Source of the DNA: Tubiluchus corallicola
Lineage: Eukaryota; Animalia; Priapulida
Length of the DNA: 64,000 nt
Direction of reading: 5' to 3'
NCBI GenBank assembly: GCA_030141605.1
Contig: JAQGDQ010000693.1
Span: 1 to 64,000, forward strand
Below are positions 122 to 51,500 of this stretch, one piece after another. Within the stretch, counting starts at the first letter, position 1, and every line of letters starts with the position of its first letter. The notes under the pieces are model-generated. The model saw only the letters and a program-made list of their open reading frames with translations, was not told the origin of the DNA and did no database searches. Made by a program: the position numbers and the translations under genes.

Positions 122-358
122 AACTTGAACTGCAGCAATCTGTGTGGCACTGGAAAACGGTATGAAAACCAGCTTCAGAAAGTTTTTGTTACTTGAGGTT
201 TAATACTGAAATGCTACCTACTAGATACTGCTTAATGATCGTAGGATCGGTGTCTTGTCTTGGGATTGTGATGTTGCATGTTGCAAGCACCATAATATGA
301 GTACTTGAAATCAAAGGTGCACTGTTCACCCATATGATATTCTATTTTTGTATTTTAG

Positions 359-511
359 AAAATTGGTGAGGATATTCAGTCACATGAACCATCAGTGACA
401 AAGTTACTAGAGAGAGCTGCCAACCTGCTTGAAGTGAAAACCGACGAGTCAATAAAGACAAGTGTACAACAAGTTAAAGAGCAGTACGAGAGTCTGAGCA
501 ACCAAAACCAG
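359..511 (+). CDS. SYNE1: nesprin exon (spectrin repeat), copy 1 of duplicated exon
   Basis: tattttAG|..|GTaatc, 153 nt, phase 0-0; KIGEDIQSHEPSVTKLLERAANLL..ESLSNQNQ. Confidence 0.85.
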
Positions 512-24500: not shown

Positions 24501-27500
24501 ATCCTGCAATCCAAAGGCTTTGTACATTTTTCATTTTGATTATTTGGTTGTTCACGTGCATTATCCAAACCTGGAAATGAGTTCACTAAAGTGGATAAAT
24601 TTTCACTTTGGCATTCTTTTTATTTTATTTTCCTGTTTGTTTCATCTGACTTGACAGTTTTTCATGTTTGCTCAGGTGCAACAGAAAGCGGATGAAAAAA
24701 CCCCACGTCTCGATGAAGCCACTCACTTGTGGAATGTGTGCGAAGAAGCAAGTGTATTTGTGACAGATTGGAGGAAGAATTCGGAGAATGTCATCTACAC
24801 AGAGTTACAGAGAAGCAGCCGAGATCAGCTAATAGCACAAGTTTCTCAAAGCGAGGTACTACTTTAATACAAAACTAGTGCACTGATGCAAAACTTATTA
24901 CTTTACAGTTGCTTATACATGTAACCAGCAATTATACATACATACACAATAACATACGTATGTTTTCTTAGAATCAAAAACAAAATTTACTCTCAGTTTA
25001 TATCAGAAACTTCTAAATAGGCTTAACTGTGCTTTTTTGCAGATGCTCATGAATGATTCAGTAGAAGTTGAACAAAAATTGAAATTGATGGAAGACGGTC
25101 TTGCAAAACTGGAACTATTACCTGAAATCGACATTGACGAAGAGAAAAACAAATTTACCCATTTATCAACTATGATTGTTGAGGTGGGTTAAACAAAATT
25201 ATTTGAGCATATTAGCCGCTTTTCATTTTATTATTATCAACCATTACTTACAAGGATATTTACTTACAAGGATATTGTTTATGCATTACAGATAAAGAGC
25301 ATATTGCAGCATAGAATTTTGGCCTTAAATGAAGCCATTGAGGAAACTACGGAAGGGACAGAGCCACAATTACAGCTGGAATTGTCACAAGTTTTAGCAC
25401 CCGATACTGGTGCTATTGAGCCCGTTAGCAGTTTTACTGCTGATAGCATGGTTGATGGCTTTACTGACACAACTGTTGAGGAAAATGTTGCTTTAACACA
25501 GACTACTGAACCTGTTTCTCCTCAAGAAAAGGGTTACTATAGCATGGAAACATCAATGGAAACCATTGATACTTCTCCAGTTGTTATTGCCCACACACCT
25601 GCAGACTTCAACATATCTCCGGATGAACTGTTGGATAACGTGACATCAACCAAAGCAATGCCTGATAAGGAAAGTGAGGATATCAGTGAACTAGTCGATA
25701 ATGCCATTGTTTTAGACTCTGAAGGTTCATCTACTGAAATAGTAAATGGACAGCTTCCTGAAATGACTGGCATCGATGTTCTACCAATTCAGAAATTTAG
25801 AGAACCTGAGGAATCAGAAATTTTGGAAGATAATTCTGTCCCAGAAGAAGTGACTGAAGCAATAGAAGAAGTTGGAGAAGACAAAGTTGAAGTTTGGGAG
25901 GAACAAGGAGAAGAAAGAAGTATGTCTGCTATAGGAGCTCTTATTAAAGCGACCACGTCATCGGTAACAACGGTCGTAACTCGTGTGTCCGAGGTTGCTG
26001 ATCAACATATCACTGATGAAGAGGGAGTGGAGGCCTTACCTGATGAAGATTTTGTAATGGCAGATGAATCGTACCCTGAAACTGGAAATCAACCAGTAAT
26101 CACAGCAACTGAAGATGACTTAACTGGTTTTATTGTTATTGACGAAGAAGAGGTTGACACGGGAACTTCAGAATTGAAGCTTGCACCTGGTGAGGCAAAT
26201 GTTATTGGGCCAGGCGAGGAATTTGTTGTAGTTCTAGGTGAAGATGTACTACAGGATTCAAAATCTGAACCTGAACACATCACAAGTGATAATGTATCTA
26301 TAGATCACTTGCCAGAAGAAGAGCAAGGAATTGACATTTCTAAAACTGATGGTGCAGTTACAACGATGGTTAGAACAGTTGAAGAATACGAAGTTGACAC
26401 AAGACATACAGCAAGTGAAGATATGGAAAAAACGACGCAAGAAGAATCGACAAGTACTTTAACTACAGTTACTAAAATAATAACAACTAAACAGATCATA
26501 ACAACTTCAACTCTCTTAGAATCATCTGAAGTTGAACCGTCAGTCATTATAACAGAGGAAACAGATGACACCCATCCCAGAAAGCAAGAAAGTATTGGCA
26601 CTTGCAAGGAGGAGATGACCTATCTGGAATTGGAAACTGAGCCTTTTGATAAACATTGGATTCCTGAGAAAGATTATGAAAAGAAACCAGAGGACATTCA
26701 TTTAGTAAAGCATGAAGTAACTGATAGTCAACTTAAAGATCAGGGTTCTGATGAAGAGAAGCCACTTTCTGAATTTAAAACGCCAGTCATCCAGGCTGTG
26801 GAAGACGAGGTAAGTGTCTGATTTTAGCACTTTTAGTAAATTTTGTTAGTAAGTCCGGATGACCATTACTAATATATTAATCTCAATACAGCGTAGTAAA
26901 GAATGCCACCTATGCAAGCTTGTCAACTGCTTTCAGCTAGCTAAACCATTTCTAAAATGTTAACTGTCTGTTGGAAGTTTTTAACCAGGCTACTAGGTAT
27001 TTTAACTTTATGATCAAGCAATTCTATAATCATAAAAATTACTTCACCTGCAAGTCTGTGATTAGCTACATGCTTTCTGCATTAAATGAGCATTTTATAA
27101 TTTGTATCTTTAGTAAAAACCACATTCCATGGTGTGATTGCACCCAGCCTTACAATACTAACAAATATCACAGTTTTTACAATTACTTGCACATGAAGTT
27201 AATCATCCACTATACAATACATGCTTGCACCTGTCATGTAGACCACTATGCACTAGATCACTGTCTGATTGGTAGTTGTAGTACCTAAAAAAATCTATTG
27301 TCACTTTCCTTCTCTGCATGTAAACTGTCTTTTAAATGTAAGAGGTGTCTGCTAATTACTACATGTGGACGAATTTCATCATTGCGGGACATTGCGATTA
27401 CTTTAAAAAAAACTTTGTGCAATGATATAGTACATCTTTAGTTACATGTGCAATTGTACTGTATGTACTTTGCAAAAACAGCTAGTGTGGTATATAGTTG

Positions 27501-30500
27501 GTTTTTATAATAAAAGTCTGAGAATAAAGTGAACTGCTTGCTGCCTTCTGGCATGTGACTTTAAAGACTAATATTACATTAAATTTAAGCTGCCAAATTG
27601 AAAAATATTTCTTACACATGTAGAAAACGTGTGAATTCACTTTACTTCATTGTGTATGATTCTAGTACATTTTTGCTACTTGAAACAGTGTTTTGAGCAA
27701 GCTGCTGAATTTTGTCTGAAGTGCAAACATGCTGTTCACTTTCAATTGTCCACAAGTTGATAAAGCAGATGTTCTCTTATTAAAGAGTATTTTTCAGTGT
27801 TTCAAAGTGATGAGCGGTATTAAATCTATTAACTAAATTTGTTGTGCTTTCTCTCTGCACTTTTTTTTGTCTAAAGATAATTTGGCTTATCTGTAACAAT
27901 TACAGTATCATATGTAGGAATGATCTATTAATATTGTTTCATGGTGTAACTTCTGTTGCAATGCTTTTATTAAACAAAATAATAATATTATCATGCTTTA
28001 TTGACTGAAGGCTGCAACTGAATATTTTATTTTGTGCTTTTTCTGCTTGGTTTCTTGCAAATGGTTGATATTTCGCTTCTGTTGCTGTGTTTGTAAACTA
28101 TATGTTTTTGCATGTTATTTTCTTTTCTCAGACACTTCTAGTGACACCAGATGATATGCGAAACATGGACACAGTGTCACACTCACTCTTAACACAAACA
28201 ATCACCACTAAAACATTTGAAATTTCTGACACCACGGCTCATAAAACAGTAGAGCAACAGCCTGCTGTTACTGCTGAAGTTGACATTGAAGTGTTGGAAG
28301 TTGATTCGGATGTGCAACCAGATAAAATGAAAAGTGGCAAACCCTTAGAAATTGGTTTACCTAATGTTAATCTCCTGCAGCCATTAACAATAGAGACAAC
28401 TGCATCTGATGTTGTTGACAGGTGCGAGCAATCATCAGAATTAGAAACACCTGAACCTTCTGAAGTGGTTAGTATCGATGTTCAGCTTGAGAAACCGTCA
28501 GAGCCGGAAATTCATCCTGTTGATGTTTCTGTTGAAATTCCATCTGAAATTACAGCAAGCAGTACTGCAACATATATAACCGCTGAAGTAGAAACTAGCA
28601 AAGTTGATGTCGATCACGTGCCAGCTTCAGAATCATGGTCTACAATTAATCTTAAACTTGAACAGCAATCAGACTTGCAAAGTCTCGCTATTGATTTGAC
28701 ACGCGAAGCTCCTACTCAAACAATCACTGCTGAAGTTGAACATGAACAGTCTTTAGAATTAGCTGCAGCAGCTGTAGAGCAGAACAAACTGCTCCACAGT
28801 TCTTCTCTTGATCTTGAAGTTGAGCAGCTGCCTGAGGCACAAATGCCTGAGTTGACTGGCAGGAAACCTTCAGAAATCAGAACTCTTGTTGTTGATCTCA
28901 TGCAACCATCAGAAATAACTGATGTTAATGTTAAAGCTGGGCAATTGTCAGGCTTGCCTGAATTCACTGACGTGGCTGGTATTGATGTTCAGCGTAAAGA
29001 ACCAGCAGAAAACAAGATGTATCATGTTGAAATAGCTTCTGATATTACAATAGACGATACTGAGCTCCACGAAACTGCAGAAGTAGGTAGCTTGGAAACT
29101 GATATTGAGGCACTTTTAGGACCAGAACAAACTATAGTTGATGTGGACATAAGGCATGCATCTGAACAAAGAACTAGAGCTGTTGATCTGAAACAAGAAA
29201 GCCTTATTGAAACAGTTCATAAAATTGAACCAGCACAAGAAATTGAAAAAGATTTGGTTGCTGTTGAATTACAACATAAGGAAACTCCCAAATTTTCATC
29301 TGCAGAGCTCGAAAAGGAACAAATATCTGAAGTACAAAATCTTGAGCTTGAAGATGACAAACATTCAGGTACTAAACCTGTACAATTATCAGAAACAGTT
29401 AAAACAGTTGATACTGAAGTTCAGCAGCCACTAGAATTAGAAATTCCAAAACCTGCTAATGCTGATGTACAGACTGAAAGATCACCAGGAGAAGAAATAC
29501 TTCCTACTGGTCTTATTGAAACACCTTCTAAAATAACAGCAGGCGATGTTGAATTCTCTATAGAAATGGAAACCACTGACATTGCACTTGAGCAACATCC
29601 AGAAATGGAATTGTCTGCTGTTGACTTAGAACAAAGACAACCATTCCACATTGCTGATTTTGAAATTCAGCAAGTGCCTAAAATGCACACTGCTGAAATA
29701 AAAGGTGATAGACCTTCAGAAACTACTGCACTTGATACTAAACTCCTGCAACCATTAAAAATGGAGGTGGCTGAAGATAGCATTGGAGTTCAGAAACCTG
29801 CAGATATAGAAACATCTATACTCTCCAAAATGCAGGCAGCAACAGTTGGTACTTCTGCGTTATTTACATGTAAACCTTCACAAATCGAAACAACCACAGT
29901 TGATATTGAAGTTCAGTATCCATCAGATTCATATTCACCTAAACCCGTACCAACTGTGCAACGAGAATTGCATGGGTCTGTCAAGTCTCACATTGAGGTA
30001 CCTTCTAAATTGACAATAAGTGATGCTGAAACGGAAGCAGCTGAAGTTGTTACCGATCTTTTGCCAGCTTCTGGAGTGCAGACTGCAAACAATGTTATAT
30101 GGCAATACCCAGTAAAATTGGAAACTGAACCCCTTGAAACAGAAGATGAAAGTTATAAGACTGTGTTCGAACCACAGCCAAAGCAAAATTTAGTTTCTGT
30201 AGATTTAGAATTTAAGGAATCACTTGAAGCTTCTGCTACTGATGTAGGCATAGAGCATGTGCCAACTGCTGAAATGGAACCTTGTGTGGAGTCAAATTTA
30301 GGTACTATAAACCAAAAAGCAGAGTCTAGTGTGCTACTAGAAAAGAGTTTGGATTCTTCCGGCATGAAGGAACGGTCTGAAGTAATTACTGAAATGCCCA
30401 ATGAATTACTTAAAACTGAAATTGATGTGCAAGTAACTGAAGCTGTGGAAAAGCCAGATATGGTCCAGAGTATAGCTAAAATGAATGAACGTTTGAGTGA

Positions 30501-33500
30501 ATCAGCAGAAGCCTTGGCTGATTTTGATTTGCTTGAGAAAACTGAGGCTGATGCTTATGATGGATTCATTGTAATTGATGATGCTTTTGAAATTGGTACT
30601 GAAATTACAGAAAATGCTGGTAATCAAAAAAGCTCATTGCAAATAAGATCAGAAATTCTTCCCGTTGAAATGAAGCCAAGCGGCAAAGGAGATGATAGTC
30701 ACGTCAGTGATGGCAAATTTACTGCTTTACCTGTGCCATTTGCAGGGTTCGATAACTTGGCATCAAAACATGGCAGTGAACATAAAGAAGACAAATTATC
30801 AACAGTGGACACTCAAGTTACGGTTATCACCGAATGCTTAACAGAAACTATAACTGAATTTCTCGATGAACAAACAGTAGTTGAACAACCAGAAGAACTG
30901 AAAATAACCACCGTTGAAGATGAAAACAAATTTACGGAGTTAGAAATTACTGAAATAGGTCTAGTGAAACCTGCAGATGAATTTTATGACTCTACAGATT
31001 TAACCACAGTTATCAGTTCTGCTTCAGTTGACATACCATCTAATAATAAAAATGCTGCAACCACTTTACTTGATTCTTCTGAAAAACTTGATAGAACAAA
31101 ATCGAAGAAAGTCATTGTTACTGAAACAACAAAACAAACAAAGGAAACCATTTTTGATATCAAACCTACTTTTGAAGTAGAAGAAGATCAAATAAAGAAA
31201 GGCATTGCCAAAGGCATTGCCGAGAAGAAAGAGCCTATGGGTATTGCTGTACCAGCTTTATGTATCATGCAAGATGGTGACACATCTGAAATGAAAATTG
31301 ATGATTTGATCGGACATGGAATGGATGTGAAGAAAACAAAAGAAGTGAAAGCGAATGTCTGCAAGAATGAGGAGATTTCTGGAGAAGTGCAAAAATCCAC
31401 AGAAGTAATTTCAGATGTATTGGAAGTACACACACACGAACAAATGGTTTTGGATTTGGTGGAAAAGAAGCCCAAAGATGACTTGAAGAAATACTCAGAG
31501 GCAGATGTAGAGAGTGTGGATGAACCCAAAGAAACAACTTCATCTGTCATAGAAGATGAAGGAGTTCAGGAAGTGGAAGATAGAGCAATTATTACACATG
31601 ATGTGCATGGGGACTCTAATGATATCACTACATATGTGGTGAAAGAAAAGACTACTGAAGTTGTTACAGATGATGTAGAAGTGAAACCAAAAGGAATGAT
31701 TACATTTGTCGTGAAGAAAGTGAAAGAAGTGGTTACAGGTTCTGTAGATGGGCACAAACTAAAATATATGACTGCTAATACTATAGAAGAGGAGAAGTTA
31801 AAAGAATTGGTTGCTGATACTACAGAACAAGAAGAGTACAAACCAGAAAAAGTTGATGCATTTATTGTTGAAGAGAAGCCTGGTGAACTGTTTATTGATG
31901 CCAAACCAACAGAGATGATAGCAGATTTTACAGAGGTAAAGAAATCCAGCAAAGTTAATATTGATTTTGCAGGGAAGGTAAAACCTAAAGAAATTACAAT
32001 ACCTATTAAAAATAGCATAGAAGAAAAACCCAAAGAAATTAGTACTGATGAAAATATTTTGAGTATTGTCGAAGAAGAGTATAGCGAAGAATTGCTTACA
32101 GACAAGAAACCCGAGGAAATCTTTGTTGGAGTTACAGAAGAGAACAAACCAAAAAGGGTTATTGAGAACATAGTGGAGCAGAAAAATGAAGAAGCTATTA
32201 TGGATACTAGAAGGGAAAGGGCTAAGGAATTTTCTGTAGAGCATCATGCACCCGAGGAGCTTGTTCTTGTTCATTCAGAGGAGAAGCTCGAGGACATTAC
32301 ATTACAAGAAAGTCCTGAAGAAGTTATGATAGATGATTTAGAGACTATAAATTTCATAAAGGATCAACTGCCAGAAGTTGTGGACACTAGTGACAAAGAA
32401 GAATCAAAAGATTTTCTGGATGATATTTCGGAGACTGTAAATTTCATAAAGGATCAAATGCCAGAAGTTGTGGACACTAGTGAAAAAGAAGAATCGAAAG
32501 AAGTTATTCCTAAAGGTGAGGAAGAAAAAGCAGAAGAGTTTATTATGAGTCGTGCAAAAGAACAGAAACATGAAAAATTTACAGAAGTTAGTGATGATAC
32601 TATAACAGAGAAGCAACTAAAAGAAGTTGTAGCTAATCTTGCAGAACAGAAATCTCAAGAAGATGTTACAGATAGTAAAGAGGTGGAAGAAGAAGCTAAC
32701 GTGACACCAAATCTTAAAGAAGAAAAAGCAAAGGCAATTATTACTGATTCATTTGAGGAACAGAAACTTGAAGAAGTTTTTATTGGTGAGGAAGTTGTTG
32801 TGGACACTAAGGAGATGGAACAAGCCAAAGAAGGGAAGTCAAGGAAAATTACTGATTTTGTAGAGGAACTGAAACCTAAAGACATTACTGTGGGCACATC
32901 CGAGGAACTTGAAACTGGTGAAATGTTTTCAGAAATCATAGAAAAGGAGAAACAAGCAGAAGTTATCGTTAATACTATACAGGAAAAGAATTTCAGTGAA
33001 ATTACTAGTAAAAGAGACAATAGCAAAGAAATTTTTTCTGATACCGTTGAGAAGAAACCTAGAGATGTTGCTGTCATGGAATCTGTAAAAGAGCAACCTG
33101 CAGAATTTATTCTGATGACCTCCACATCAGCTACTGCTCAACAAAAAGATGTAGAAAAGTCTGTGGATTATGTAGAAGAATGTCCAGAAGTTAATACATG
33201 TGGTACCTTACTTATTGGAGATGACGGCATTCAGCCAAAATTTAGTGAGAAAGCATTTGCTCTTACTGTTGAGCCTCATAAGAAATCAGATTTAACAGAA
33301 GTAGTAAATGAACTACACAAAATTCACAAACAGGTACCATTAGTAATATCATCAGAAACAGACATATCTACATATCCAGAGGGAGCAGCAGAAACAACTG
33401 CTGATGACATCACTTTGGAAAAAATTTTACTCCAGGTAACGTCATCTAAGAAGATCAATTAATATGTATTAATTTATAAATTAATGCAGTTTGATAACTG

Positions 33501-36500
33501 TGTAAATTTTATGTATAATATTTTATAGATGGTTAGCTTTGTAAGTTTAATACAATAGTTTCATGTAATTGAATTAAAAGCGAATGTATGCAAACGGATG
33601 TTTTACTGTATTCTGCAAACTAATTTGTGGCCTTTTTATAACAGTAATGTTTAAATTTAAGTTTAAAGATTTTCTTTACATAATGTTTTATTAAAGCTGT
33701 TTGTTTCTAGTTGAGAACTTATATAGTGCATCGTCTACTCCTTGCATTTTTTCAGGGTTAAAAGTCTCTTTTTCTCCCATTTTGCAAAATTGTGTAACTT
33801 GTTTGCTCTTTAAAATGCTTTAGTTTCAGAATGTTAGCCTGCTTCTTTCAGTGTTTCATTTTTTTAATTTTTCTTTAGGAAAAATTTGAAGAGGTGCCTA
33901 TTCGTGATGCTGAAAAAGTCGATCATGTTGAGGTGGAGGTGAGCTCTCTTATCTTAACTAATATACCACTTACCTGATAACCCTGTATTATTTCCAATCT
34001 TGGAACTACAAATTCATTATATTTGTATGCGCTAAATTTATTGTCTATGCAACAGTACTGAGCGCAGGCAGACATCGATTTATTCATTATTCTTTTCCAG
34101 AGCTTTTCAACGTGTAGAATTGTTTGTTTTTGAGAAGTCAGTGCTCAAATTTGATAGAAAATAGTGAGTCTCTATTGTCAATGGACTCATTTTAATGCCG
34201 ACTTTGTGATGCCATTGAGTCTATAACATGTTACAGAAGTGTAAAACTGTCGAAACCCGAAACTTGATGTATTTTCAATTTTGGAAAATCTGAAAATCAT
34301 TGCATGTAATGAATATAAATTGTTAATTTTTAATATCAATTAATATTGAAATAAACCTACAATTATTAAAATCACAAAACAAAAGACATTCGAAAAGTTT
34401 CTTGTTTAAATTCTGACTCAGTCTCAGCTTTTTTCTTTTCTTTATAGCAATGGTTTTGCCTCAATGTGGGTTTTGTTGTTCTGTGAAAAAGACTTGGGAA
34501 ATTAAGTGATATTAGTTGATAGTTAAACAACTAGATATTGTTCTTCCACTTCAGTCAAGTATTTATGTTTGGCTTGTGTAAATAATCTGCATGTAGTTTT
34601 GCCCTCATATATCTAAATTACCTGTTGTTGACAGTGTTAAAACCTAATTAATTATGCAATTAGTGGCTGACTTGCAGGGAATGATTATCGTAATTTGCTC
34701 TGCTTGATGTGTCTGCATGAAAAAACCACAAGACAACAACTAAATGTCAGTTGTTAACTAGAAACACCTCACCAATTGCTCTAGTCTAACAGTCCTTTGC
34801 AAAATTTTTTATAAACATTTGACATCGCATGTTTCACAGATAACATTAATAACAAAAATGTAACTCATAAATTTTCCCATCATTAAGCAATATACATGGC
34901 TTGCATATCTTCTTACATATATATATATATATATGTGTGTGTGTGTATGTGTTTGTCTCTTACTTGTATGAGATATTTGCTTTCATTTTCTTTTTTGATA
35001 GTATAGATTACCAGTTTCTTGTTTACTGACTTTACACTGTTCACTGTGTGCTTTTATATTATTAATTTCTTTTGTTGCTAATTGTTATAGCTTATTTGCG
35101 TACATTAGAAGCAGTGGTGAATATGCTGCAGCAAATATATTGTAATTATTTATATTCAGATGCATTAAATTGTTATTAATCTACATGCATGACATCTGTA
35201 TCACATCTTCATTGCAACAATCAGTAAGATCATTAACTAACTTATTACCAAAATCAGTTACATCTCAAGACAAGTTTTTCATTTGGCATTCTCATACTTG
35301 GCATTCAGAAAACTGATGCACAATTTTTAATTTCGTGTTTGCTTTTTTCCTTCGGTTCTTTAGTTTTTGCTCTCTTGTACTTCTTGCACGATGCATTAAT
35401 CCCTTAAACTTGAGTTTCTAGAGCTTTGTTTGTGGTGTGCACTCTTTGGTTATTGGTTCTATTCTATCCTGTGTCTGCTTTTTACCACTTTTGTGTCTGT
35501 TGTCACAGAGATTATCACCTGTTGCTGGTAAAGATGTCGGAGAACTAGAAACAAACGTGGATGAAAGCAAACATATGCTATCAAAACAACAGAAGAAACA
35601 CAAAAAAAGGAGACGAAGGAAGAAGCAGAACAAACTTCCTGAAGTCAGTGTAGCTAATACGCGAGGGGCCATTGCTGCCTGTGAAAATGTAATGCCTGAC
35701 AAAAAGTCAAAACATGCAAAGAAGAGTAAAAAGAATTCCCCCGATCCAGAAGCTGGAGTAGTTGAAGTTGCACCTGTTCAAGATAAAGAATCTCTGCTGG
35801 AAGAATCTGAAAATTGGATTGACAACAGGAAGAGTCTGAAAGCTGTATCCGAACAAGCATCACAGTTAATATGTACAACAGCTGACAATGTGTTGAATGA
35901 AGAAGATGATGAATTGGCCACTCACCTTGCTGAAATAAGAGCAAAATTGTTAAATTTGTCAAGCACTGTTTCTCCGCCAGAAGAGACTGAAGATAAATCC
36001 CTTCCAATTATTGATAATACAAGTGCTGTTGACCATGATTCCATTAATAGTGATGGAATGCAGATTTTTGGTGATATTGTGCCCGAAGAAACAATATCTG
36101 AGCAAATTCATATAGAGCAGGGTATGGCTGAATTAATGTCAAACATTCAAAAAATAAAGGACAGAGTTGGAATTTATGATTCTAGTCTGACATTGCTGGA
36201 AGAAGTAGCGCAGACTAACGGCTATCAAAATGAAGATGATGAGTTAGGCAAACCATTAGACCCTGAGTTGTCATTTAAAAATGCAGTGGATGAAGTTCCA
36301 GATGAATCCATTGAACTGGCAGAAGAAAGTGTCCAACTTCAAGAGGTTGAGGTAGAAAATGATCTTTGTTTGCAGCTTGCTGCATTGAAGCAGAAGCTTA
36401 AAAATCTCTCAGAAGCTGCATCATTTAAACTCGAGGAATTGTCAGAAGATGATGTAAAAGCATTAGACATTGATCATGCTAAACTTGGTGATATTTCTGA

Positions 36501-39500: not shown

Positions 39501-42500
39501 GGGATTCTTTAAGGGCCAAGATAGGAGCCAAAATGTGTTACAGCTCAGTAACTCTAAAACGATAGTAACTACAGTCACGAAACTTACTGGGAAGACAGCT
39601 GGAGTCGGGATGTCAAACAAATGTGTAGTTAAATGAAAAGGCAGCATTCTTTAAGAGCCCGAAATGTGAAAATTAAGGCATCCAGTTTTGATTCACGTTA
39701 ACTCTCCAAGGGTAGACACTTGACCCATGTCAAATTTTTAAGGTATTGACGTATTGACATGAGTTAACCACACTCGACCAAATGTAGTTAGTTGTAAACA
39801 TGGTCACGGCGTTACGCTTGTGGATTTGGTTCTGTAGTCACTCAGTCTTGTCTATATTGTTTTATCTGTTTCTGTGGTGGTAGTAATATAATGATACTGG
39901 TTGCTACTCTTGAATGTTTTCATAAATTTTATATAATTTAATAGTAGTCTTTTGTTATGTCTATAAATTATTTTGGTGACAGTCCTTATTTAAAGCATGT
40001 ATTTATGTAAATCATCTGTTTAATGTTTATGTGGTTTTATTCAGTTTGGTGATGCTATGTGATTGGTTCTTTTTCTTATTCGTTTTGTTACTTCTTCTTC
40101 TTTCTAGCCCATTGTAGGATACGGAGCCATTGCGTTAACAGATCGTTCTCATACTGCTCTAACTACACAAATAAGTGATACTTATTTACCTGATTTCACA
40201 ACTGATGATAATTTACATGCAAAATTAGCTCACAACAATTTACAAATAAATCACCCTTCTACAGAAGAACATGCAATTAGTGCAGCACAAACCATAATTG
40301 AACAAGGAAAGCAAGCTGACACATTAGGTTTATCTGACATGCCGAAACAGATTGAATTACAATACAAAGAAGCACTTGAAATTTCTAAATCTGCTGATTC
40401 TGACAGAGAGCAACAACCAGAAATAGAACCTTCTACCTTGAAAAGTGACTTTGAAATTGTTAACATTGATGTTCAGCTTGAGGAACCATCGGAAATGGAA
40501 ACGCTACCTGCTAAGCTTCTTTCTGAAATAACACCAGATGATGTTGAACTTCATAAACCTACAAAAATAGAAGGTCAAGTTGATATCATGCTGCCTGAGC
40601 AACTTCCAAGAACAGACTTAGCTGCTGTTGAATTAGATCAAACTGTTCATCTTGGAATTAAGCAAGTATCCGATTTACAAATTGCTGAGATAGAAGGAGA
40701 TAAGTCTTTAGAAATCTGTGCTTTTGCTGAACATGTGGCACCATCAAAACCAAAGACAGCTTCAATTGATATTGAAATTCAGCAGCTGCCAGAATTAGAA
40801 GCTCCTAAGCCCTCAGAAATTGTTAGTATTAATGTTCAGCTCGAGAAGTCATCAGAAAAAGAAATGTTTCCTGCTGAGGTTAATATAGAGGCTCCACCTC
40901 AAATGACAGCAGAGGATATGGAGCGCTCCATAGAAATTGTTGGTACTGATGTTCACCTTGAAGAACCAGTAGAATCAGAAATGCATCCAACTGAACTTCA
41001 CATTGAGGTGCCTTCTGAAGTAACGTCAGTAGATATTGAGCCTAGCAAAATTACAGAAATAGAAACTGCTGAAATTGATATTGCACCTGAATATGAATTG
41101 GGAACAGAAATTGACATTGTTGATCTAGAGCAAGAGGTATCACCATCTCCTTCTGCTGTTGATCTTGAAATTGAGAAGCTGTCTGATTTACAAACTGCTG
41201 ACACTAAAAGTGACAAACTTCCAGAAGTTGTTGTTCTTGATGTTGAACTTATGAGGCCACCAGAATTAGAAGGTCCTAAGCCCACAGAAGCTGTTAGTAT
41301 TGATGTTCAACTAGAAAAGCCATCAGAACAAGACATGCTTCCTGCTGAGGTTAATATAGAGGCTCCACCTGGAATGACAGCAGATGATATTGAGCGTTCT
41401 ACAGAAATTGTTGGTACTGATATTCACCTTGAAGAACCAGCAGAATCAGAAATGCATCCAACTGAACTTCACATTGAGGTGCCTTCTGAAGTAACGTCAG
41501 TAGATATTGAGCCTAGCAAAATTACAGAAATAGAAACTGCTGAAATCGATATTGCACCTGAACATGAATTGGGAACAGAAATTGACATTGTTGATCTAGA
41601 GCAAGAGGTATCACCATATCCTTCTGCTGTTGATCTTGAAATTGAGAAGCTGCCTGATTTACAAACTGCTGACACTAAAAGTGAAAAACTTCCAGAAGTT
41701 GCTGTTCTTGGTGTTGAACTTATGAAGCCACCAGAATTAGAAGCTCCTAAGCCCACAGAAGCTGTTAGTATTGATGTTCAACTAGAAAAGCCGTCAGAAC
41801 AAGACATGCTTCCTGCTGAGGTTAATATAGAGGCTCCACCTGGAATGACAGCAGATGATATTGAGCTTTCTACAGAAATTGATGGTACTGATGTTCACCT
41901 TGAAAAACTAGTAGAATCAGAAATGCATCCAACTGAACTTCACATTGAGGTGCCTTCTGAGGTAACGACAGTAGATGTTGAGCTTAGCAAAATTACAGAA
42001 ATAGAAACTGCTGAAATCGATATTGCACCTGAACATGAATTGGGAACAGAAATTGACATTGTTGATCTAGAGCAAGAGGTATCACCATATCCTTCTGCTG
42101 TTGATCTTGAAATTGAGAAGCTGCCTGATTTACAAACTGCTGACACTAAAAGTGAAAAACTTCCAGAAGTTGCTGTTCTCGATGTTGAATTTATGAAGCC
42201 ACCAGAATTAGAAGCTCCTAAGCCCACAGAAGCTGTTAGTATTGATGTTCAACTAGAAAAGCCATCAGAACAAGACATGTTTCCTGCTGAGGTTAATATA
42301 GAGGCTCCACCTGGAATGACAGCAGAGGATATTGAGCGTTCTACAGAAATTGTTGGTACTGATGTTCACCTTGAAGAACCAGTAGAATCAGAAATGCAGT
42401 CAACTGAACTTCACATTGAGGTGCCTTCTGAAGTAACGTCAGTAGATATTGAGCCTAGCAAAATTACAGAAATAGAAACTGCTGAAATCGATATTGCACC

Positions 42501-45500
42501 TGAACATGAATTGGGAACAGAAATTGACATTGTTGATCTAGAACAAGTGGTATCGCCATATCCTTCCGCTGTTGATCTTGAAATTGAGAAGCTGCCTGAT
42601 TTACAAACTGCTGACACTAAAAGTGACAAACTTCCAGAAGTTGCTGTTCTTGATGTTGAATTTATGAAGCCACCAGAATTAGAGGCTCCTAAGCCCACAG
42701 AAGCTGTTAGTATTGATGTTCAACTAGAAAAGCCGTCAGAACAAGACATGTTTCCTGCTGAGGTTAATATAGAGGCTCCACTTGGAATGGCAGCAGATGA
42801 TATTGAGCGTTCTACAGAAATTGTTGGTACTGATGTTCACCTTGAAAAACCAGTAGAATCAGAAATGCATACAACTGAACTTCACATTGAGGTGCCTTCT
42901 GAAGTAATGTCAGTAGATATTGAGCCTAGCAAAATTACAGAAATAGAAACTGCTGAAATCGATATTGCACCTGAACATGAATTGGGAACAGAAATTGACA
43001 TTGTTGATCTAGAACAAGAGGTATCACCATATCCTTCTGCTGTTGATCTTGAAATTGAGAAGCTGCCTGATTTACAAACTGCTGACACTAAAAGTGACAA
43101 ACTTCCAGAAGTTGCTGTTCTTGATGTTGAACTTATGAAGCCACCAGAATTAGAAGCTCCTAAGCCCACAGAAGCTGTTAGTATTGATGTTCAACTAGAA
43201 AAGCCGTCAGAACAAGACATGCTTCCTGCTGAGGTTAATATAGAGGCTCCACCTGGAATGACAGCAGAGGATGTTGAGCATTCTACAGAAATTGTTGGTA
43301 CTGATGTTCACCTTGAAAAACCAGTAGAATCAGAAATGCATTCAACTGAACTTCACATTGAGGTGCCTTCTGAAGTAATGTCAGTAGATATTGAGCCTAG
43401 CAAAATTACAGAAATAGAAACTGCTGAAATCGATATTGCACCTGAACATGAATTGGGAACAGAAATTGACATTGTTGATCTAGAGCAAGAGGTATCACCA
43501 TATCCTTCTGCTGTTGATCTTGAAATTGAGAAGCTGCCTGATTTACAAACTGCTGACACTAAAAGTGACAAACTTCCAGAAGTTGCTGTTCTTGATGTTG
43601 AACTTATGAAGCCACCAGAATTAGAAGCTCCTAAGCCCACAGAAGCTGTTAGTATTGATGTTCAACTAGAAAAGCCGTCAGAACAAGACATGTTTCCTGC
43701 TGAGGTTAATATAGAGGCTCCATCTGAAACGACAGCAGAGGATATTGAGCGTTCTAGCAAAATTGTTGGTACTGATGTTCACCTTGAAGAACCAGTAGAA
43801 TCAGAAATGAAGTCAACTGAACTTCACATTGAGGTGCCTTCTGAAGTAACGTCAGTAGATATTGAGCTTAGCAAAATTACAGAAATAGAAACTGCTGAAA
43901 TCGATATTGCACCTGAACATGAATTGGGAACAGAAATCGATGCTGTTGACCTAGTCCACGAGATTGCTGACACAAAAAGTGACAAACTTCCAGAAATTGG
44001 TGTTCTTGATGTTGAACTCGTGAAGCCATCAGAATTAGAAGCTCCTAAGCCCACAGAAACTGTTAGTATTGATGTTCAGCTAGAAAAGCCATCAGGACAA
44101 GACGTGCTTCCTGCTGAGGTTAATATAGAGGCTCCATCTGAAACGACAGCAGATGATGTTGAGCGTTCTACAGAAATTCTTGGTACTGATGTTCACCTTG
44201 AAGAATCAGTAGAATCAGAAATGAAGTCAACTGAACTTCACATTGAGGTGCCTTCTGAAGTAACGTCTGTAGATATTGAGCCTAGCAAAATTACAGAAAT
44301 AGAAACTGCTGAAATCGATATTGCACCTGAACATGAATTGGGAACAGAAATTGACATTGTTGATCTAGAACAAGCGGTATCACCATATCCTTCCGCTGTT
44401 GATCTTGAAATTGAGAAGCTGCCTGATTTACAAACAGCTGACACTAAAAGTGACAAACTACCAGAAGTTGCTGTTCTTGATGCTGAACTTATGAAGCCAC
44501 CAGAATTAGAAGCTCCTAAGCCCACAGAATCTGTTAGTATCGATGTTCAACTAGAAAAGCCATCAGAACAAGTCATGTTTCCTGCTGAGGTTAATATAGA
44601 TGCTCCACCTGGAATGACAGCAGAGGATGTTGAGCGTACTACAGAAATTGTTGGTACTGATGTTCACCTTGAAGAATCAGTAGAATCACGTGAGGTCACT
44701 GAACTTCACATTGAGGTGCCTTCTGAAGTAACGTCAGTAGATATTGAGCTTAGCAAAATTACAGAAATAGAAACTGCTGAAATCGATATTGCACCTGAAC
44801 ATGAATTGGGAACAGAAATTGACATTGTTGATCTAGAGCAAGAGGTATCACCATATCCTTCTGCTGTTGATCTTGAAATTGAGAAGCTGCCTGATGTACA
44901 AACTGCTGACACTAAAAGTGACAAACTTCCAGAAGTTGCTGTTCTTGATGTTGAACTTATGAAGCCACCAGAATTAGAAGCTCCTAAGCCCACAGAAGCT
45001 GTTAGTATTGATGTTCAACTAGAAAAGCCGTCAGAACAAGACATGCTTCCTGCTGAGGTTAATATAGAGGCTCCACCTGGAATGACAGCAGAGGATGTTG
45101 AGCATACTACAGAAATTGTTGGTACTGATGTTCACCTTGAAGAATCAGTAGAATCAGAAATGAAGTCAACTGAACTTCACATTGAGGTGCCTTCTGAAGT
45201 AATGTCTGTAGATATTGAGCTTAGCAAAATTACAGAAATAGAAACTGCTGAAATCGATATTGCACCTGAACATGAATTGGGAACAGAAATTGACATTGTT
45301 GACCTAGTCCACGAGATTGCTGACACTAAAAGTGACAAACTTCCAGAAGTTGCTGTTCTTGATGCTGAACTTATGAAGCCACCAGAATTAAAAGCTCCTA
45401 AGCCCACAGAAGCTGTTAGTATTGATGTTCAACTAGAAAAGCCGTCAGAACAAGACATGTTTCCTGCTGAGGTTAATATAGAGGCTCCACCTGGAATGAC

Positions 45501-48500
45501 AGCAGAGGATGTTGAGCGTACTACAGAAATTGTTGGTACTGATGTTCACCTTGAAGAATCAGTAGAATCAGAAATTGAGTCGACTGAACTTCACATTGAG
45601 GTGCCTTCTGAAGTAATGTCAGTAGATATTGAGCTTAGCAAAATTACAGAAATAGAAACTGCTGAAATCGATATTGCACCTGAACATGAATTGGGAACAG
45701 AAATTGACATTGTTGATCTAGAGCAAGAGGTATCACCATATCCTTCTGCTGTTGATCTTGAAATTGAGAAGCTGCCTGATTTACAAACTGCTGACACTAA
45801 AAGTGACAAACTTCCAGAAGTTGCTGTTCTTGATGTTGAACTTATGAAGCCACCAGAATTAGAAGCTCCTAAGCCCACAGAAGCTGTTAGTATCGATGTT
45901 CAACTAGAAAAGCCGTCAGAACAAGACATGTTTCCTGCTGAGGTTAATATAGAGGCTCCACCTGGAATGACAGCAGAGGATGTTGAGCATACTACAGAAA
46001 TTGTTGGTACTGATGTTCACCTTGAAGAATCAGTAGAATCAGAAATGGAGTCAACTGAACTTCACATTGAGGTGCCTTCTGAAGTAACGTCAGTAGATAT
46101 TGAGCTTAGCAAAATTACAGAAATAGAAACTGCTGAAATCGATATTGCACCTGAACATGAATTGGGAACAGAAATTGACATTGTTGATCTAGAACAAGTG
46201 GTATCGCCATATCCTTCCGCTGTTGATCTTGAAATTGAGAAGCTGCCTGATTTACAAACTGCTGACACTAAAAGTGACAAACTTCCAGAAGTTGCTGTTC
46301 TTGATGTTGAATTTATGAAGCCACCAGAATTAGAGGCTCCTAAGCCCACAGAAGCTGTTAGTATTGATGTTCAACTAGAAAAGCCGTCAGAACAAGACAT
46401 GTTTCCTGCTGAGGTTAATATAGAGGCTCCACCTGGAATGACAGCAGAGGATGTTGAGCGTTCTACAGAAATTGTTGGTACTGATGTTCACCTTGAAGAA
46501 CCAGTAGAATCAGAAATGGAGTCAACTGAACTTCACATTGAGGTGCCTTCTGAAGTAATGTCAGTAGATATTGAGCCTAGCAAAATTACAGAAATAGAAA
46601 CTGCTGAAATCGATATTGCACCTGAACATGAATTGGGAACAGAAATTGACATTGTTGATCTAGAACAAGCGGTATCACCATATCCTTCCGCTGTTGATCT
46701 TGAAATTGAGAAGCTGCCTGATTTACAAACTGCTGACACTAAAAGTGACAAACTTCCAGAAGTTGCTGTTCTTGATGCTGAACTTATGAAGCCACCAGAA
46801 TTAGAAGCTCCTAAGCCCACAGAAGCTGTTAGTATCGATGTTCAACTAGAAAAGCCGTCAGAACAAGTCATGTTTCCTGCTGAGGTTAATATAGAGGCTC
46901 CACCTGGAATGACAGCAGAGGATGTTGAGCGTACTACAGAAATTGTTGGTACTGATGTTCACCTTGAAGAATCAGTAGAATCAGAAATTGAGTCGACTGA
47001 ACTTCACATTGAGGTGCCTTCTGAAGTAACGTCTGTAGATATTGAGCCTAGCAAAATTACAGAAATAGAAACTGCTGAAATTGATATTGCACCTGAACAT
47101 GAATTGGGAACAGAAATTGACATTGTTGATCTAGAACAAGCGGTATCACCATATCCTTCTGCTGTTGATCTTGAAATTGAGAAGCTGCCTGATTTACAAA
47201 CTGCTGACACTAAAAGTGACAAACTTCCAGAAGTTGCTGTTCTTGATGCTGAACTTATGAAGCCACCAGAATTAAAAGCTCCTAAGCCCACAGAAGCTGT
47301 TAGTATTGATGTTCAACTAGAAAAGCCGTCAGAACAAGTCATGTTTCCTGCTGAGGTTAATATAGAGGCTCCACCTGGAATGACAGCAGAGGATGTTGAG
47401 CGTACTACAGAAATTGTTGGTACTGATGTTCACCTTGAAGAATCAGTAGAATCAGAAATTGAGTCGACTGAACTTCACATTGAGGTGCCTTCTGAAGTAA
47501 TGTCAGTAGATTTTGAGCTTAGCAAAATTACAGAAATAGAAACTGCTGAAATCGATATTGCACCTGAACATGAAATGGGAACAGAAATTGATGCTGTTGA
47601 CCTAGTCCACGAGATTGCTGACACAAAAAGTGACAAACTTCCAGACGTTGCTGTTCTTGATGTTGAACTTGTGAAGCCATCAGAATATGAAGTTCCTAAG
47701 CTCACAGAAGCTGTTAGTATTGATGTTCAACTAGAAAAGCCATCAGAACAAGACATGCTTCCTGCTGAGGTTAATATAGAAGCTCCACCTGGAATGACAG
47801 CAGAGGATGTTGAGCGTTCTACAGAAATTGTTGGTACTGATGTTCACCTTGAAGAACCAGTAGAATCAGACATGCATCCAACTGAACTTCACATTGAGGT
47901 GCCTTCTGAAGTAACGTCAGTAGATATTGAGCCTAGCAAAATTGCAGAAATAGAAACTGCTGATATCAATATTGCACCTGAACATGAATTGGGAACAGAA
48001 ATTGACATTGTTGATCTAGAGCAAGAGGTATCACCATATCCTTCTGCTGCTGAGCTTGAAATTGAGAAGTTGCCTGATTTACAAACTGCTGACACTAAAA
48101 GTGACAAACTTCCAGAAGTTGCTGTTCTTGATGTTGAACTTATGAAGCCACCAGAATTAGAAGCTCCTAAGCTCACAGAAGCTGTTAGTATTGATGTTCA
48201 ACTAGAAAAGCCATCAGAACAAGACATGTTTCCTGCTGAGGTTAATATAGAGGCTCCACCTGGAATGACAGCAGAGGATGTTGAGCGTTCTACAGAAATT
48301 GTTGGTACTGATGTTCACCTTGAAGAACCAGTAGAATCAGAAATGCATCCAACTGAACTTCACATTGAGGTGCCTTCTGAAGTAACGTCAGTAGATATTG
48401 AGCCTAGCAAAATTACAGAAATAGAAACTGCTGAAATCGATATTGCACCTGAACATGAATTGGGAACAGAAATTGACATTGTTGATCTAGAGCAAGAGGT

Positions 48501-51500
48501 ATCACCATATCCTTCTGCTGCTGATCTTGAAATTGAGAAGCTGCCTGATTTACAAACTGCTGACACTAAAAGTGACAAACTTCCAGAAGTTGCTGTTCTT
48601 GATGTTGAACTTATGAAGCCACCAGAATTAGAAGCTCCTAAGCTCACAGAAGCTGTTAGTATTGATGTTCAACTAGAAAAGCCGTCAGAACAAGACATGT
48701 TTCCTGCTGAGGTTAATATAGAGGCTCCACCTGGAATGACAGCAGAGGATGTTGAGCGTTCTACAGAAATTGTTTGTACTGATGTTCACCTTGAAGAACC
48801 AGTAGAATCAGAAATGGAGTCAACTGAACTTCACATTGAGGTGCCTTCTGAAGTAACGTCAGTAGATATTGAGCCTAGCAAAATTACAGAAATAGAAACT
48901 GCTGAAATCGATGTTGCACCTGAACATGAATTGGGAACAGAAATTGACATTGTTGATCTAGAGCAAGAGGTATCACTATATCCTTCTGCTGCTGATCTTG
49001 AAATTGAGAAGCTGCCTGATTTACAAACTGCTGACACTAAAAGTGACAAACTTCCAAAAGTTGGTGTTCTTGATGTTATGAAGCCGTCAGAATTACAAAC
49101 TCCTAAACCATCTGAACAAGAAGTGGTTCTTGCTGAAGTTAATGTAGAGACTTCTGAAATGACAAATGCAAAGGCTTCTTTAGAAATAACAAGTGATATG
49201 AAATATGCAACAGAAATTGTTGGTATTGATGTTCATGTTGAGGAGTCATCAGAACCAGATATACTTCCAACTGGACGTCATGATGACATGCTTGTTGAAT
49301 TAACATCAGATGTTGTTGAACATGACACATCACCGGACTTGCAAGCAATGCTTGTACCAGCCGAGTCAGATAAACCCCAAGACATATTAACACAAATTTC
49401 TGATGCACAGTTAGGTATGAAAGAACCAAAAACTACAAACATAAAATCACCATTACACATTTTAAGTACAAAAATAGGAGAACCTGCTGAGTCAGGCTTA
49501 CCAATAGCACCTCCTGAGAAACAGGACGAACAGGAACAGGTATCATATTATTTTGTTGTGGTATGTTTTGAAATGTGGAACTATTTAATTATGTTTATAA
49601 TGAGTACACTTGCAGAATTTGCTATGATTTGTCATCATATAATTAGTTCGGTGGAAAGACTTGTATCATTCTTTTGAAAGCTTTAGTCTGTAAATAAGAA
49701 AATATTTTGTATATAGTCAATATAATCATGGCTTTATATGCAACATATCAATTTTTCGTAACTTTAATTATTTTTGGTATCTTTTGGGGAATATTTCTTC
49801 CGAGGTAGCTGTTACATTTTGGTTTTCCATTTAACATATAGGTTGAAGATGCTATTGAGACAGTCAGAGAGGAGCCATTTGTTGAGCCTGGAGCAGAACC
49901 AATGCCAAAAGATGTTGATACTAAAGAAGAGACAAATGAGATAACAAAACCAGAAGATGTTGAGCTTGAAAAAGAGCCAAAAGAAGTTATAAGTGCCTTA
50001 CCCATTGACACTTTTAGAGGGGAACAAGTCACACCTCACGAGGAGTTAGAACCGGAAGATGTTGGGGCTGAACCAAACAGGGGGGAAGAAGAACCAAAAA
50101 AAGTAACAAGTGTTTTGCCCATCAAGTTGCATAGAGAGGAACCAGTCGGACCGCATGTTGAATCAAAATCAGAAGCTATTGGTGTTGAAGAAGAGCCAAA
50201 TGAAATAATAAGTGCTTTACCCATCCAATCATTTAGAGAGGAAGTAGTTAAATTTCATGTAGAGTCAAAATCTGAAGATGTTGAGACTGAAAAAGAGACA
50301 AAGGAAGTAACAATTATCTTGCCTATTGAATCATATAGAGAACCCGCTAAATCTCAAGAACCTGAAGAACAATTCAGTGAGGCATTTAGAGATGAACAAC
50401 CAGAAATAGAGGAAGTGGATCTTACAACTGTTGTTACAGAAGATTTACCCACGAACATGTGGGGGTATGATCCAAGAGAGCTTAGTTATGCAGAAGTGTT
50501 AAAGCTGGGTTTGCAAAAATTGGAACCACATGAGGATGAGACGTTTGTCACCACAGAAGAATTGCAACTTGAAGGTGGCCCAATTGAAGAGGTATATATT
50601 TGTTCAGAAACTTTGTTTGTTGTGTGTGTTATCTGTTTCTTTCTTCATCCTAAAGTTGAAAACATGTAAGAGTTTATTTACACGCAATCATGTTAGTGCA
50701 ATGATAGATTCACAAAATTTTGTGGTCACTTAAGTTTTACAGGATCGAAATTCACTAAAGTGACAATTATTATAACAAACTTTTACTGTTTACATCTTCA
50801 AAGAAAATATAAAAAATAAAAACATGTATGTTTTTAATGATGTGTTTTTAATGAACGTTGCAGGTACGGCCTGTTTATCAGGTGCATCATGATGTATTGC
50901 TGCATCGAATAATTCATCGAGTTACAGTTACTGAGATCTGGTTAACAGAAGTCGTGGAAACCTTTATGACTCGTCCTATACAACCTGGCGAAGCCAGTTA
51001 CACCTTACAAGAAAACCTTGTATGTTTTGACTTACGTCTATCATGATTGTAATGTTTAAGGTCTCTAAGATATCTACAACTACTGTTATTTAAAGTAATG
51101 TGACAATCTAGGTGAAATAGCAAAATAAAAGCAACTTTACATGACATTAAAAGATCAACGTATATTTGTGCAGTGAAAATTAAACTCAATAGGAAATAAA
51201 CTGTTTTTGAATTGATACTAGGTTTGTAACTAAATTTTACTGATGCGGAATGAGTATAGAAACTATTACGTATTTCACCTGATAATGCATGCTAGCAATT
51301 TCTTTCTTGATTTTCTAAAAGGCCTGTGTTTTTAGGTGTCATTAAAATTGTATTTGGTTGTGTTTTCTTTATAAATAAGGCATCAGGAGTAGAAAGTACA
51401 TGACACCTTCCATTTATTGTGTCATTATTATTGAATTATTATTTTTAACAGGATTTACAAGAGGCTATTAAGGCAAAAGAAAAGGAGCTTAGTAATTTAT

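What the first reader, a model, noticed from the sequence alone, without database searches (positions are those of the whole stretch)
25292..50591. About 6,360-aa titin-scale acidic insert inside a nesprin rod, built entirely of phase-0 cassette exons
Seen: the spectrin rod is interrupted by seven exons (1518, 5304, 60, 1986, 42, 9432, 750 nt; 19,092 nt), all phase 0-0, E/D/V/P/T/K-rich and nearly free of Trp. This window alone encodes about 9,850 aa with neither terminus, more than full-length human nesprin-1 (about 8,800 aa). Established: titin tunes spring length by splicing PEVK exons; Drosophila Msp300 has giant isoforms with a PEVK-like segment; nematode ANC-1 is repeat-expanded. Inference: a splice-tunable elastic or spacer nesprin, with any subset of the internal cassettes skippable in frame. 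I am not aware of this architecture being described for a chordate-type nesprin. Best candidate for a new system here.
Basis: partly seen in the sequence, partly recalled or inferred. Interest (0 to 1): 0.85.

Follow-up and report, generated by a model that had tools for sequence, protein, structure and literature searches.

The report
Giant acidic spacer in worm nesprin
A nucleus-tethering nesprin gene, likely from a priapulid-type marine worm, carries about 7,000 amino acids of acidic, repeat-rich sequence at the same position where insect nesprins have a spacer of variable length, so it is a known design found in a new animal group; it is predicted to act as a floppy spacer and carries a short conserved motif that may dock ribosomes.

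Summary
Seven AG/GT, phase 0-0, stop-free exons encode 6,364 aa. A related run holds spliced contigs over four of them and joins the last one to a spectrin-like exon. Two parts of the interpretation fail. Phase 0 is this gene's baseline (43 of 54 flanking introns), and no skipping junction was seen. The gene is also unlikely to be chordate-type: its best match is Priapulus nesprin (39% gapless, others 26% or less). Both flanks align with the rods on either side of the known low-complexity insert of insect Msp300. That span is about 7,100 aa here and 1,743-6,732 aa in insect records. The insert is acidic and not PEVK-like (P+E+V+K 39%), evolves near-neutrally (dN/dS 0.84) and shows no confident fold. 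It shares polybasic patches and an S-Y-A-[ED]-[IV]-L motif with insect and copepod inserts. That motif matches LARP4's RACK1-binding SYAEV, which suggests an untested ribosome-docking role. The scan noted a giant nesprin insert once before in another genome (e1-9277151). Verdict: new member of a known kind.

The parts
359..6050 (+). Upstream spectrin-repeat rod exons. Exon 359-511 is repeated exactly at 1092-1244.
   Evidence: Pfam Spectrin and Spectrin_SYNE1 hits below the gathering score. 39% gapless identity over 266 aa to Priapulus nesprin-1-like P0010.
6694..18982 (+). Three tandem copies of an 8-exon, about 434-aa spectrin block (6694-11130, 11283-14723, 15732-18982)
   Evidence: Same exon sizes (third block's last exon longer) and about 54-84% aa identity in aligned pieces. 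dN/dS 0.19-0.29.
17677..25345 (+). Pre-insert anchor (model aa 1614-2262), orthologous to the rod just before the insect Msp300 insert. The first 18 or so codons of the 1518-nt exon finish this helix.
   Evidence: Arthropod pre-insert HMM 110.5 bits, colinear over columns 454-1098. Best apparent off-site score among 156 proteins was 54.5. Spliced junction 24311-24676 in run X2.
25292..26809 (+). Insert exon 1 (506 aa, acidic, Thr-rich)
   Evidence: X2 contigs at 25461-25897 with an in-frame 6-nt gap.
28132..33435 (+). Insert exon 2 (1,768 aa). The N-terminal part holds degenerate copies of the exon-6 repeat; the C-terminal part is E/K-rich. Both show 13-residue periodicity.
   Evidence: In-frame 9-nt insertion in run X1. 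No X2 cover.
33879..33938 (+). Insert exon 3 (20 aa)
   Evidence: An X2 loose end directly before exon 4 matches this exon's end 15 of 20, against 7 of 20 for the intron.
35509..37494 (+). Insert exon 4 (662 aa), with a polybasic patch at 35593-35625 and several short amphipathic helices of the D-E-L-x-x-Q type
   Evidence: X2 contig at 35507-35678.
38330..38371 (+). Insert exon 5 (14 aa), predicted from splice signals only
   Evidence: Strong acceptor and donor scores. No RNA cover.
40108..49539 (+). Insert exon 6 (3,144 aa). About 18 tandem 471-nt/157-aa units (variants of 138 and 156 aa) at about 40789-49077, built of about 13-aa sub-repeats.
   Evidence: dN/dS 0.84. 0 stops among 111 variants against 3.9 expected. 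X2 contigs at 80-95% identity. AF2 pLDDT 37 and 53.
49842..50591 (+). Insert exon 7 (250 aa), with the conserved SYAEV motif at 50484-50498
   Evidence: Spliced junction 50591-50864 in X2, 42 nt on the short side.
50864..53434 (+). Two duplicated small spectrin-like units (50864-51019 with the start of 51452-51883; 52084-52239 with 53240-53434). The acidic linker between them carries a degenerate motif copy at 51773-51790.
   Evidence: 40% identity to each other over 79 aa. Only weak HMM scores.
53978..55254 (+).
   Evidence: D+E 29%. Three X1 indels with net lengths 12, 39 and 3 nt.
56337..62464 (+). Post-insert anchor (model aa 9358-9788), orthologous to the KASH-side rod of insect Msp300
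   Evidence: Post-insert HMM 44.2 bits, colinear over 440 columns. Sub-HMM 55.9 bits, best among 239,158 residues; next 40.2 (a cluster with a member named nesprin-1), then 27.8 or less.

Best explanation
This is a nesprin (Msp300-type) gene, likely of a priapulid-like worm, whose rod holds about 7,100 acidic low-complexity residues at the same site as the variable insert of insect Msp300; the insert likely works as an unfolded, highly charged spacer that would lengthen and soften the link between the cytoskeleton-binding end and the nuclear-envelope end, with short conserved motifs as predicted docking sites. Shown: open frames, splicing of insert exons in a related run, orthology of both flanks, near-neutral change within the repeats with the frame kept, and a motif shared with arthropods. 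Inferred: disorder; a contour length of about 2.7 micrometres if fully extended (7,096 residues x 0.38 nm); length set by tandem expansion and probably by alternative splicing as in flies; binding of RACK1 on ribosomes by the SYAEV motif, helped by the polybasic patch.
For: Orthology: Priapulus nesprin-1-like 39% gapless over 266 aa, E 9e-63; the next long matches are 21-26%. Pre-anchor 110.5 bits. Post-anchor 44.2 and 55.9 bits. Known site: 11 of 103 arthropod proteins held both anchors, with spans of 1,743-6,732 aa, D+E 15-19%, W-poor. Database isoform pairs differ there: Drosophila takahashii X15 1,833 vs X8 4,152; Gryllus 1,833 vs 4,213. Expression: run X2 holds GT..AG joints 24311-24676 and 50591-50864, and all 12 distinct listed pieces are exonic apart from joint overhangs. 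Frame constraint: 6 of 6 listed coding indels are multiples of 3, against 3 of 10 intronic. Spacer behaviour: dN/dS 0.84 vs 0.19-0.29 in the rod; no confident fold. Motif: 27.4 bits, 0 of 1,000 shuffles reach it; regex present in 28 of 103 arthropod proteins and in 0 of 60,374 control rod residues. LARP4's SYAEVC binds RACK1 (10.1101/2024.11.01.621267, passages). MSP300 filaments stretch 1.2-fold in larval muscle (PMC4442817, passages).
Against: No junction joins the upstream rod to exon 1, or exons 1-2, 2-3, 4-5, 5-6 or 6-7, so a single continuous transcript is not shown. The exon 3-4 junction rests on 20 letters, and six other places in the window match them 14 of 20. X2 is only guessed to be RNA and is 80-95% identical, not this individual. 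No skipping junction was seen. CH and KASH lie outside the window. The window's insert starts about 150-350 aa of rod earlier than the cricket low-complexity stretch, so the site matches at the level of the anchors, not residue by residue. Apart from short motifs, the insert has no BLAST similarity to insect inserts. The charge-hydropathy test also calls the upstream rod borderline 'disordered', so it discriminates poorly. The motif regex was written after seeing the window's copy, so the core positions of the score are partly circular. PMC4442817 attributes elasticity to spectrin repeats, not to the insert.
Confidence: 0.72

Rival explanations
1. A titin-like spring tuned by splicing: any subset of the exons is skipped to set muscle or nuclear compliance.
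For: All exons are 0-0 and could be skipped in frame. Fly database isoforms differ in insert length. Exon 28 is limited to Msp300 isoforms E, G and M (PMC8616381, passages). MSP300 is elastic in vivo.
Against: Phase 0 is the gene's baseline. No skipping joint. Composition is a polyanion with 39% PEVK and 6% K, whereas titin PEVK is about 70% (recalled). The length lies in two huge exons, not in many small ones as in titin (recalled).
Confidence: 0.3
2. The insert is mainly a multivalent scaffold, as proposed for Msp300-PE. The 157-aa repeats, made of about 13-aa alternating hydrophobic/acidic units, would bind basic partners such as microtubule-organising proteins, possibly in a rod-poor isoform started from an internal promoter.
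For: Msp300-PE has 20 x 108-aa and 19 x 101-aa acidic, genus-restricted repeats with AF3-predicted beta strands and organises a perinuclear MTOC (PMC11230431, passages and section 5). 13-residue periodicity with short predicted strands. Degenerate copies in exon 2.
Against: dN/dS 0.84 among units argues against a specific binding surface. No confident fold. No sequence similarity to the fly repeats. No internal start was shown.
Confidence: 0.2
3. The giant exons are rarely used, a separate nested gene, or inflated by assembly error.
For: An exact 733-bp duplication near the window start suggests local assembly error is possible. Short-read contigs cannot confirm the copy number of the array. 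No RNA cover for exons 2 and 5.
Against: Spliced joint from exon 7 into the next spectrin-like exon. Exon 1 begins with the end of the conserved rod helix. Repeat units differ by 3-21%. Indels keep the frame.
Confidence: 0.05

Closest known systems
Insect Msp300 (nesprin-1 orthologue) central low-complexity region, including the Msp300-PE/PG/PM repeats (PMC11230431, PMC8616381) and database records such as Spodoptera exigua P0239 and Gryllus P0014/P0158
   Same: Same position between orthologous rods; acidic and W-poor; polybasic patches; S-Y-A-[ED]-[IV]-L motif; lineage-specific tandem repeats; megadalton size (Msp300-PG 1.5 MDa).
   Different: Different repeat (157 aa from about 13-aa units, against 108 and 101 aa). 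More acidic (D+E 24% vs 15-19%). Few xQT motifs outside the repeat. Two small spectrin-like units embedded near the end. Likely a non-arthropod host. Isoform use not shown.
Priapulus caudatus nesprin-1-like XP_014679743.1 (P0010)
   Same: Closest named sequence to the upstream rod: 39% gapless over 266 aa.
   Different: A 413-aa fragment that does not reach the insert, so it cannot show whether Priapulus has the insert.
Titin PEVK segment (recalled)
   Same: Long low-complexity stretch inside a giant cytoskeletal protein; in-frame exons.
   Different: PEVK content 39%, strongly negative net charge, few giant exons, spectrin rather than Ig flanks.
LARP4/4B CR2 and ZAK-alpha RACK1-binding motifs (10.1101/2024.11.01.621267; PMC13293227)
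   Same: SYAEV core in a disordered region; ZAK-alpha also uses basic residues near the mRNA channel.
   Different: The window has L rather than C after the core. No CR1-type second site was sought. Binding is untested.
Human nesprin-1 with cassette exon 93 (PMC3388047)
   Same: A skippable low-complexity exon inside a spectrin repeat of the central rod.
   Different: 47 aa against thousands. Whether it is the same site could not be tested, since no sequence named as vertebrate SYNE1 was among my hits.

Membership tests
Nesprin-1/Msp300 giant KASH proteins | Rod of nesprin-type spectrin repeats | tested here: met
   Pfam Spectrin and Spectrin_SYNE1 hits on single exons, all below the gathering score. 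Named top hits are nesprin/Msp300. Colinear HMM alignments.
Nesprin-1/Msp300 giant KASH proteins | Orthology to KASH-bearing sequences rather than to spectraplakin or dystrophin | tested here: met
   The post-insert HMM was built hits, many carrying PF10541; 46 of 102 end in PPx. The window is the best hit of the sub-HMM among 239,158 residues.
Nesprin-1/Msp300 giant KASH proteins | N-terminal tandem CH domains | not testable with these tools
   Outside the window; no genome is held.
Nesprin-1/Msp300 giant KASH proteins | C-terminal KASH domain | not testable with these tools
   Predicted about 1,750 aa beyond the window end, from anchor-to-end distances of 2,341-2,505 aa in 43 of 46 orthologues.
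Msp300 central low-complexity insert | Located between the same two rod anchors | tested here: met
Msp300 central low-complexity insert | Shared short motifs (S-Y-A-x-[IV]-L; polybasic runs) | tested here: met
   One strong and one degenerate motif copy; one long basic patch. Partly circular scoring.
Msp300 central low-complexity insert | Isoform-specific inclusion | tested here: inconclusive
   Only inclusion junctions were seen in one small run.
Titin PEVK segment | About 70% P+E+V+K with mixed charge (recalled) | tested here: not met
   39% overall, at most 49% in exon 7; net charge -0.12 to -0.21 per residue.
Chordate-type nesprin | Closest relatives among chordate SYNE1/2 | tested here: not met
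   Priapulus 39% vs hemichordate 25%; Branchiostoma was not in the top ten for that region. No hit named as vertebrate SYNE1/2 among the 30 clusters looked up.
RACK1-binding CR2-type motif | Direct binding to RACK1 blades 5-6 | not testable with these tools
Only the five-residue sequence match to the published core.

The most novel reading that the evidence does not exclude
The giant nesprin insert is an ancient ecdysozoan ribosome-docking platform. Its sequence turns over almost neutrally and re-expands with new repeats in each lineage, but a LARP4-type SYAEV motif and polybasic patches have been kept from priapulid-like worms to flies and copepods. They would tether RACK1-bearing ribosomes on a micrometre-long leash next to nuclei, with splicing deciding which nesprin isoforms carry the leash.
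Probability: 0.25. Interest if true: 0.75.

Novelty: new member of a known kind. Interest (0 to 1): 0.42.

Why it matters
It suggests that the giant acidic insert of Msp300, described in print for flies, is an older ecdysozoan feature that re-expands with lineage-specific repeats. The distant comparison filters about 7,000 fast-evolving residues down to one conserved motif that matches a known RACK1-binding sequence. That gives a cheap test in Drosophila of how nesprins might link to local translation. The full protein would be roughly 14,000-18,000 aa if its ends resemble fly isoforms (inference), among the largest nesprins.

Tried and rejected
No whole genome is held, so CH and KASH could not be located. 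Word-based homolog searches with exon 2218-2535 and with exon 7 found nothing (weak evidence). No run on record as RNA was listed as a holder. Exons 2 and 5 had no cover in X2, which says nothing about their use. Pfam gave only composition-driven hits on the insert, such as bCoV_NSP3_N with no significant stretch; rejected. ESM Atlas: nothing at 0.9 or above for two repeat units. For a post-insert exon the first hit was a bacterial RavA cluster, with spectrin and Msp300 clusters at 0.93-0.95, so I did not rely on it. PDB search with the motif peptide found nothing. Whole-rod pairwise alignments placed the rod inconsistently, so anchor HMMs were used. The first 250 columns of the post-insert HMM do not single out the window. 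Mite, flatworm and deuterostome fragments did not hold both anchors. Hydrophobic read-through tails after exons 4 and 7, like the Msp300-PE end, are near background: 5 of 63 donors have one. A scan for further 0-0 exons from 25184 onward gave one doubtful 15-nt candidate outside the insert. Paper searches: Msp300+PEVK gave 1 review and MSP-300+PEVK 0; giant exon+nesprin 1 (24); priapulid+nesprin 1 (60); Msp300+RACK1 4 (67); a five-term search 0 (75); SYAEV gave mostly surname noise (76). These were judged from listings only, and none appeared to describe this insert outside insects or a nesprin-RACK1 link. The library lacks most subscription papers. Supplements and figure images (for example the CR2 logos) were not seen.
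Full report
Observation. The five large ones would carry 18-214 stops by chance, and their other frames are closed. Their splice sites score within the range of the flanking exons. A hand annotation of the window gives 63 exons and 9,915 aa without a stop; without an exactly duplicated 153-nt exon this is 9,864 aa, about 1.10 MDa. Phase 0 is the norm in this gene (43 of 54 flanking introns; 34 of 56 flanking exons 0-0), so it says nothing about skipping.

Is it expressed? Two runs were listed, none on record as RNA. X1 covers introns and behaves as DNA of another individual. X2 is 80-95% identical and holds GT..AG joints at 24311-24676 and 50591-50864, the second linking the last giant exon to a spectrin-like exon. 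Its 11 laid contigs give 12 distinct listed pieces, all exonic but for joint overhangs, where exons make up 56% and 65% of the laid stretches. They cover insert exons 1, 4, 6 and 7. A 20-letter loose end before exon 4 matches the end of exon 3 at 15 of 20. That is the best match in the window, but six other places reach 14 of 20. All 6 listed coding indels are multiples of three (three in the seven exons, three in exon 53978-54922), against 3 of 10 intronic ones; 12 rows were not shown. No skipping joint was seen.

What gene and what animal? A whole-library search with exon 2218-2535 returned 98 proteins. The named ones among the 30 clusters looked up are mostly nesprin or Msp300, with a few spectraplakin-like. 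The joined upstream rod aligns without gaps to Priapulus caudatus nesprin-1-like at 39% over 266 aa. An unnamed fragment reaches 45% over 97 aa, and other long matches reach 21-26%. The host is therefore likely a priapulid-like ecdysozoan, not a chordate (inference).

Where does the insert sit? One hit, a cricket nesprin (P0014), has a roughly 1,400-aa acidic stretch between spectrin repeats. Its downstream rod retrieved 103 arthropod Msp300 proteins. An HMM of that rod aligns colinearly to window aa 9358-9788 at 44.2 bits, against 19.9 or less elsewhere in the window and 33.1 or less in 156 other proteins. The more specific half scores 55.9 bits, the best among 239,158 residues. An HMM of the upstream rod aligns to aa 1614-2262 at 110.5 bits. 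Between the anchors the window has 7,096 aa. The 11 of 103 arthropod proteins that hold both anchors have 1,743-6,732 aa of similar composition, and partial records reach 6,871 aa. The window itself fell below the filters; its span comes. Database isoform pairs differ in this span (D. takahashii 1,833 vs 4,152). In print, Msp300 has at least 11 isoforms up to 1.5 MDa, and Msp300-PE carries acidic, genus-restricted repeats of 108 and 101 aa (PMC11230431, passages and section 5). Exon 28 is limited to isoforms E, G and M (PMC8616381, passages). The architecture is thus known; the likely host group and the repeat sequence are new in my searches.

Anatomy. Exon 6 holds about 18 units of 157 aa (138- and 156-aa variants), 79-97% identical. 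A 13-residue periodicity runs through exon 6 and both halves of exon 2, and exon 2 carries degenerate copies of the unit. Among 17 units dN/dS is 0.84, against 0.19-0.29 for three duplicated spectrin blocks upstream. Yet 111 distinct variants include no stop (3.9 expected, P 0.02), and the gaps are 57 and 3 nt. AlphaFold2 gave no confident fold (pLDDT 37 for a single sequence; 53 with pTM 0.12 from a 12-row alignment). P+E+V+K is 39% and net charge is -0.17 per residue, so this is a polyanion rather than a PEVK segment. Exon 4 has a polybasic patch and short amphipathic helices.

Conserved motifs. BLAST finds no similarity between this insert and the insect ones, but short motifs recur. 95 of 103 arthropod proteins have a run of five or more K/R. 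An S-[YW]-A-x-[IVA]-[LAV] motif occurs in 28 of 103 and in 0 of 60,374 control rod residues. The window's copy in exon 7 scores 27.4 bits, which none of 1,000 shuffles reaches. The regex was written after seeing the window's copy, so the core score is partly circular; the flanking L, G and L positions are not. The core SYAEV equals the centre of LARP4 CR2, which binds RACK1 directly (10.1101/2024.11.01.621267, passages). ZAK-alpha uses a near-identical motif (PMC13293227, passages). No nesprin-RACK1 paper appeared in the listings. Binding was not tested.

Mechanism. Most likely the insert is an unfolded, self-repelling spacer between the two halves of the rod. Selection appears to keep its frame and charge rather than its sequence, and short motifs would recruit partners (confidence 0.72). 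Elasticity would follow from any such chain, and MSP300 filaments do stretch in vivo (PMC4442817, passages), though that paper points to spectrin repeats. Splice tuning is plausible by analogy with flies but was not shown (0.3). A repeat-scaffold role like Msp300-PE is possible (0.2). Artefact is unlikely (0.05).

Wider context. Exon 93 is a 47-aa cassette within a rod repeat (PMC3388047, passages). I could not test whether these are the same site. PMC3646009 (two passages) added nothing on invertebrates.

Verdict. Real and spliced, a new member of a known kind, interest 0.42. The boldest reading is a conserved ribosome-docking leash on nesprin (probability 0.25, interest 0.75).

Noticed in passing
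window 171-1623: Exact 733-bp tandem duplication (720 of 720 positions tested identical) that doubles exon 359-511. Very recent duplication or assembly error.
   Followed up: partly
window 6694-18982: Three tandem copies of an 8-exon, about 434-aa spectrin block under purifying selection (dN/dS 0.19-0.29). Rod lengthening by block duplication, reminiscent of nematode ANC-1 (recalled). Some introns between copies 1 and 2 also look nearly identical, hinting at conversion.
   Followed up: partly
window 35850-37400: About seven short amphipathic helices in exon 4, each preceded by acidic residues (D-E-L-x-x-Q-I/L pattern; three caught by a regex). Possible repeated binding helices.
   Followed up: partly
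window 37495-37600 and 50592-50666: In-frame read-through after exons 4 and 7 gives short hydrophobic tails, like the transmembrane end of Msp300-PE, but 5 of 63 donors do the same.
   Followed up: yes
window 39080-39800: Intronic interspersed repeat with high depth and many loose ends in run X1; probably a transposon relic.
   Followed up: no
P0014 residues 3650-4050 and other insect inserts: Insect Msp300 inserts carry 12-23 xQT motifs that look like LC8 dynein light-chain sites (label recalled). The window's insert has few outside its repeat.
   Followed up: partly
P0160, P0199, P0212 and the human exon-93 peptide in PMC3388047: An R-S-P-S-P-like motif precedes the SYA motif in several insects, and RSPSP occurs in the human exon-93 peptide. 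A hint that the two sites may be homologous; the window lacks it.
   Followed up: no
window 54283: Run X1 carries a net 39-nt (13-codon) insertion in the last acidic exon, matching the 13-residue periodicity.
   Followed up: no
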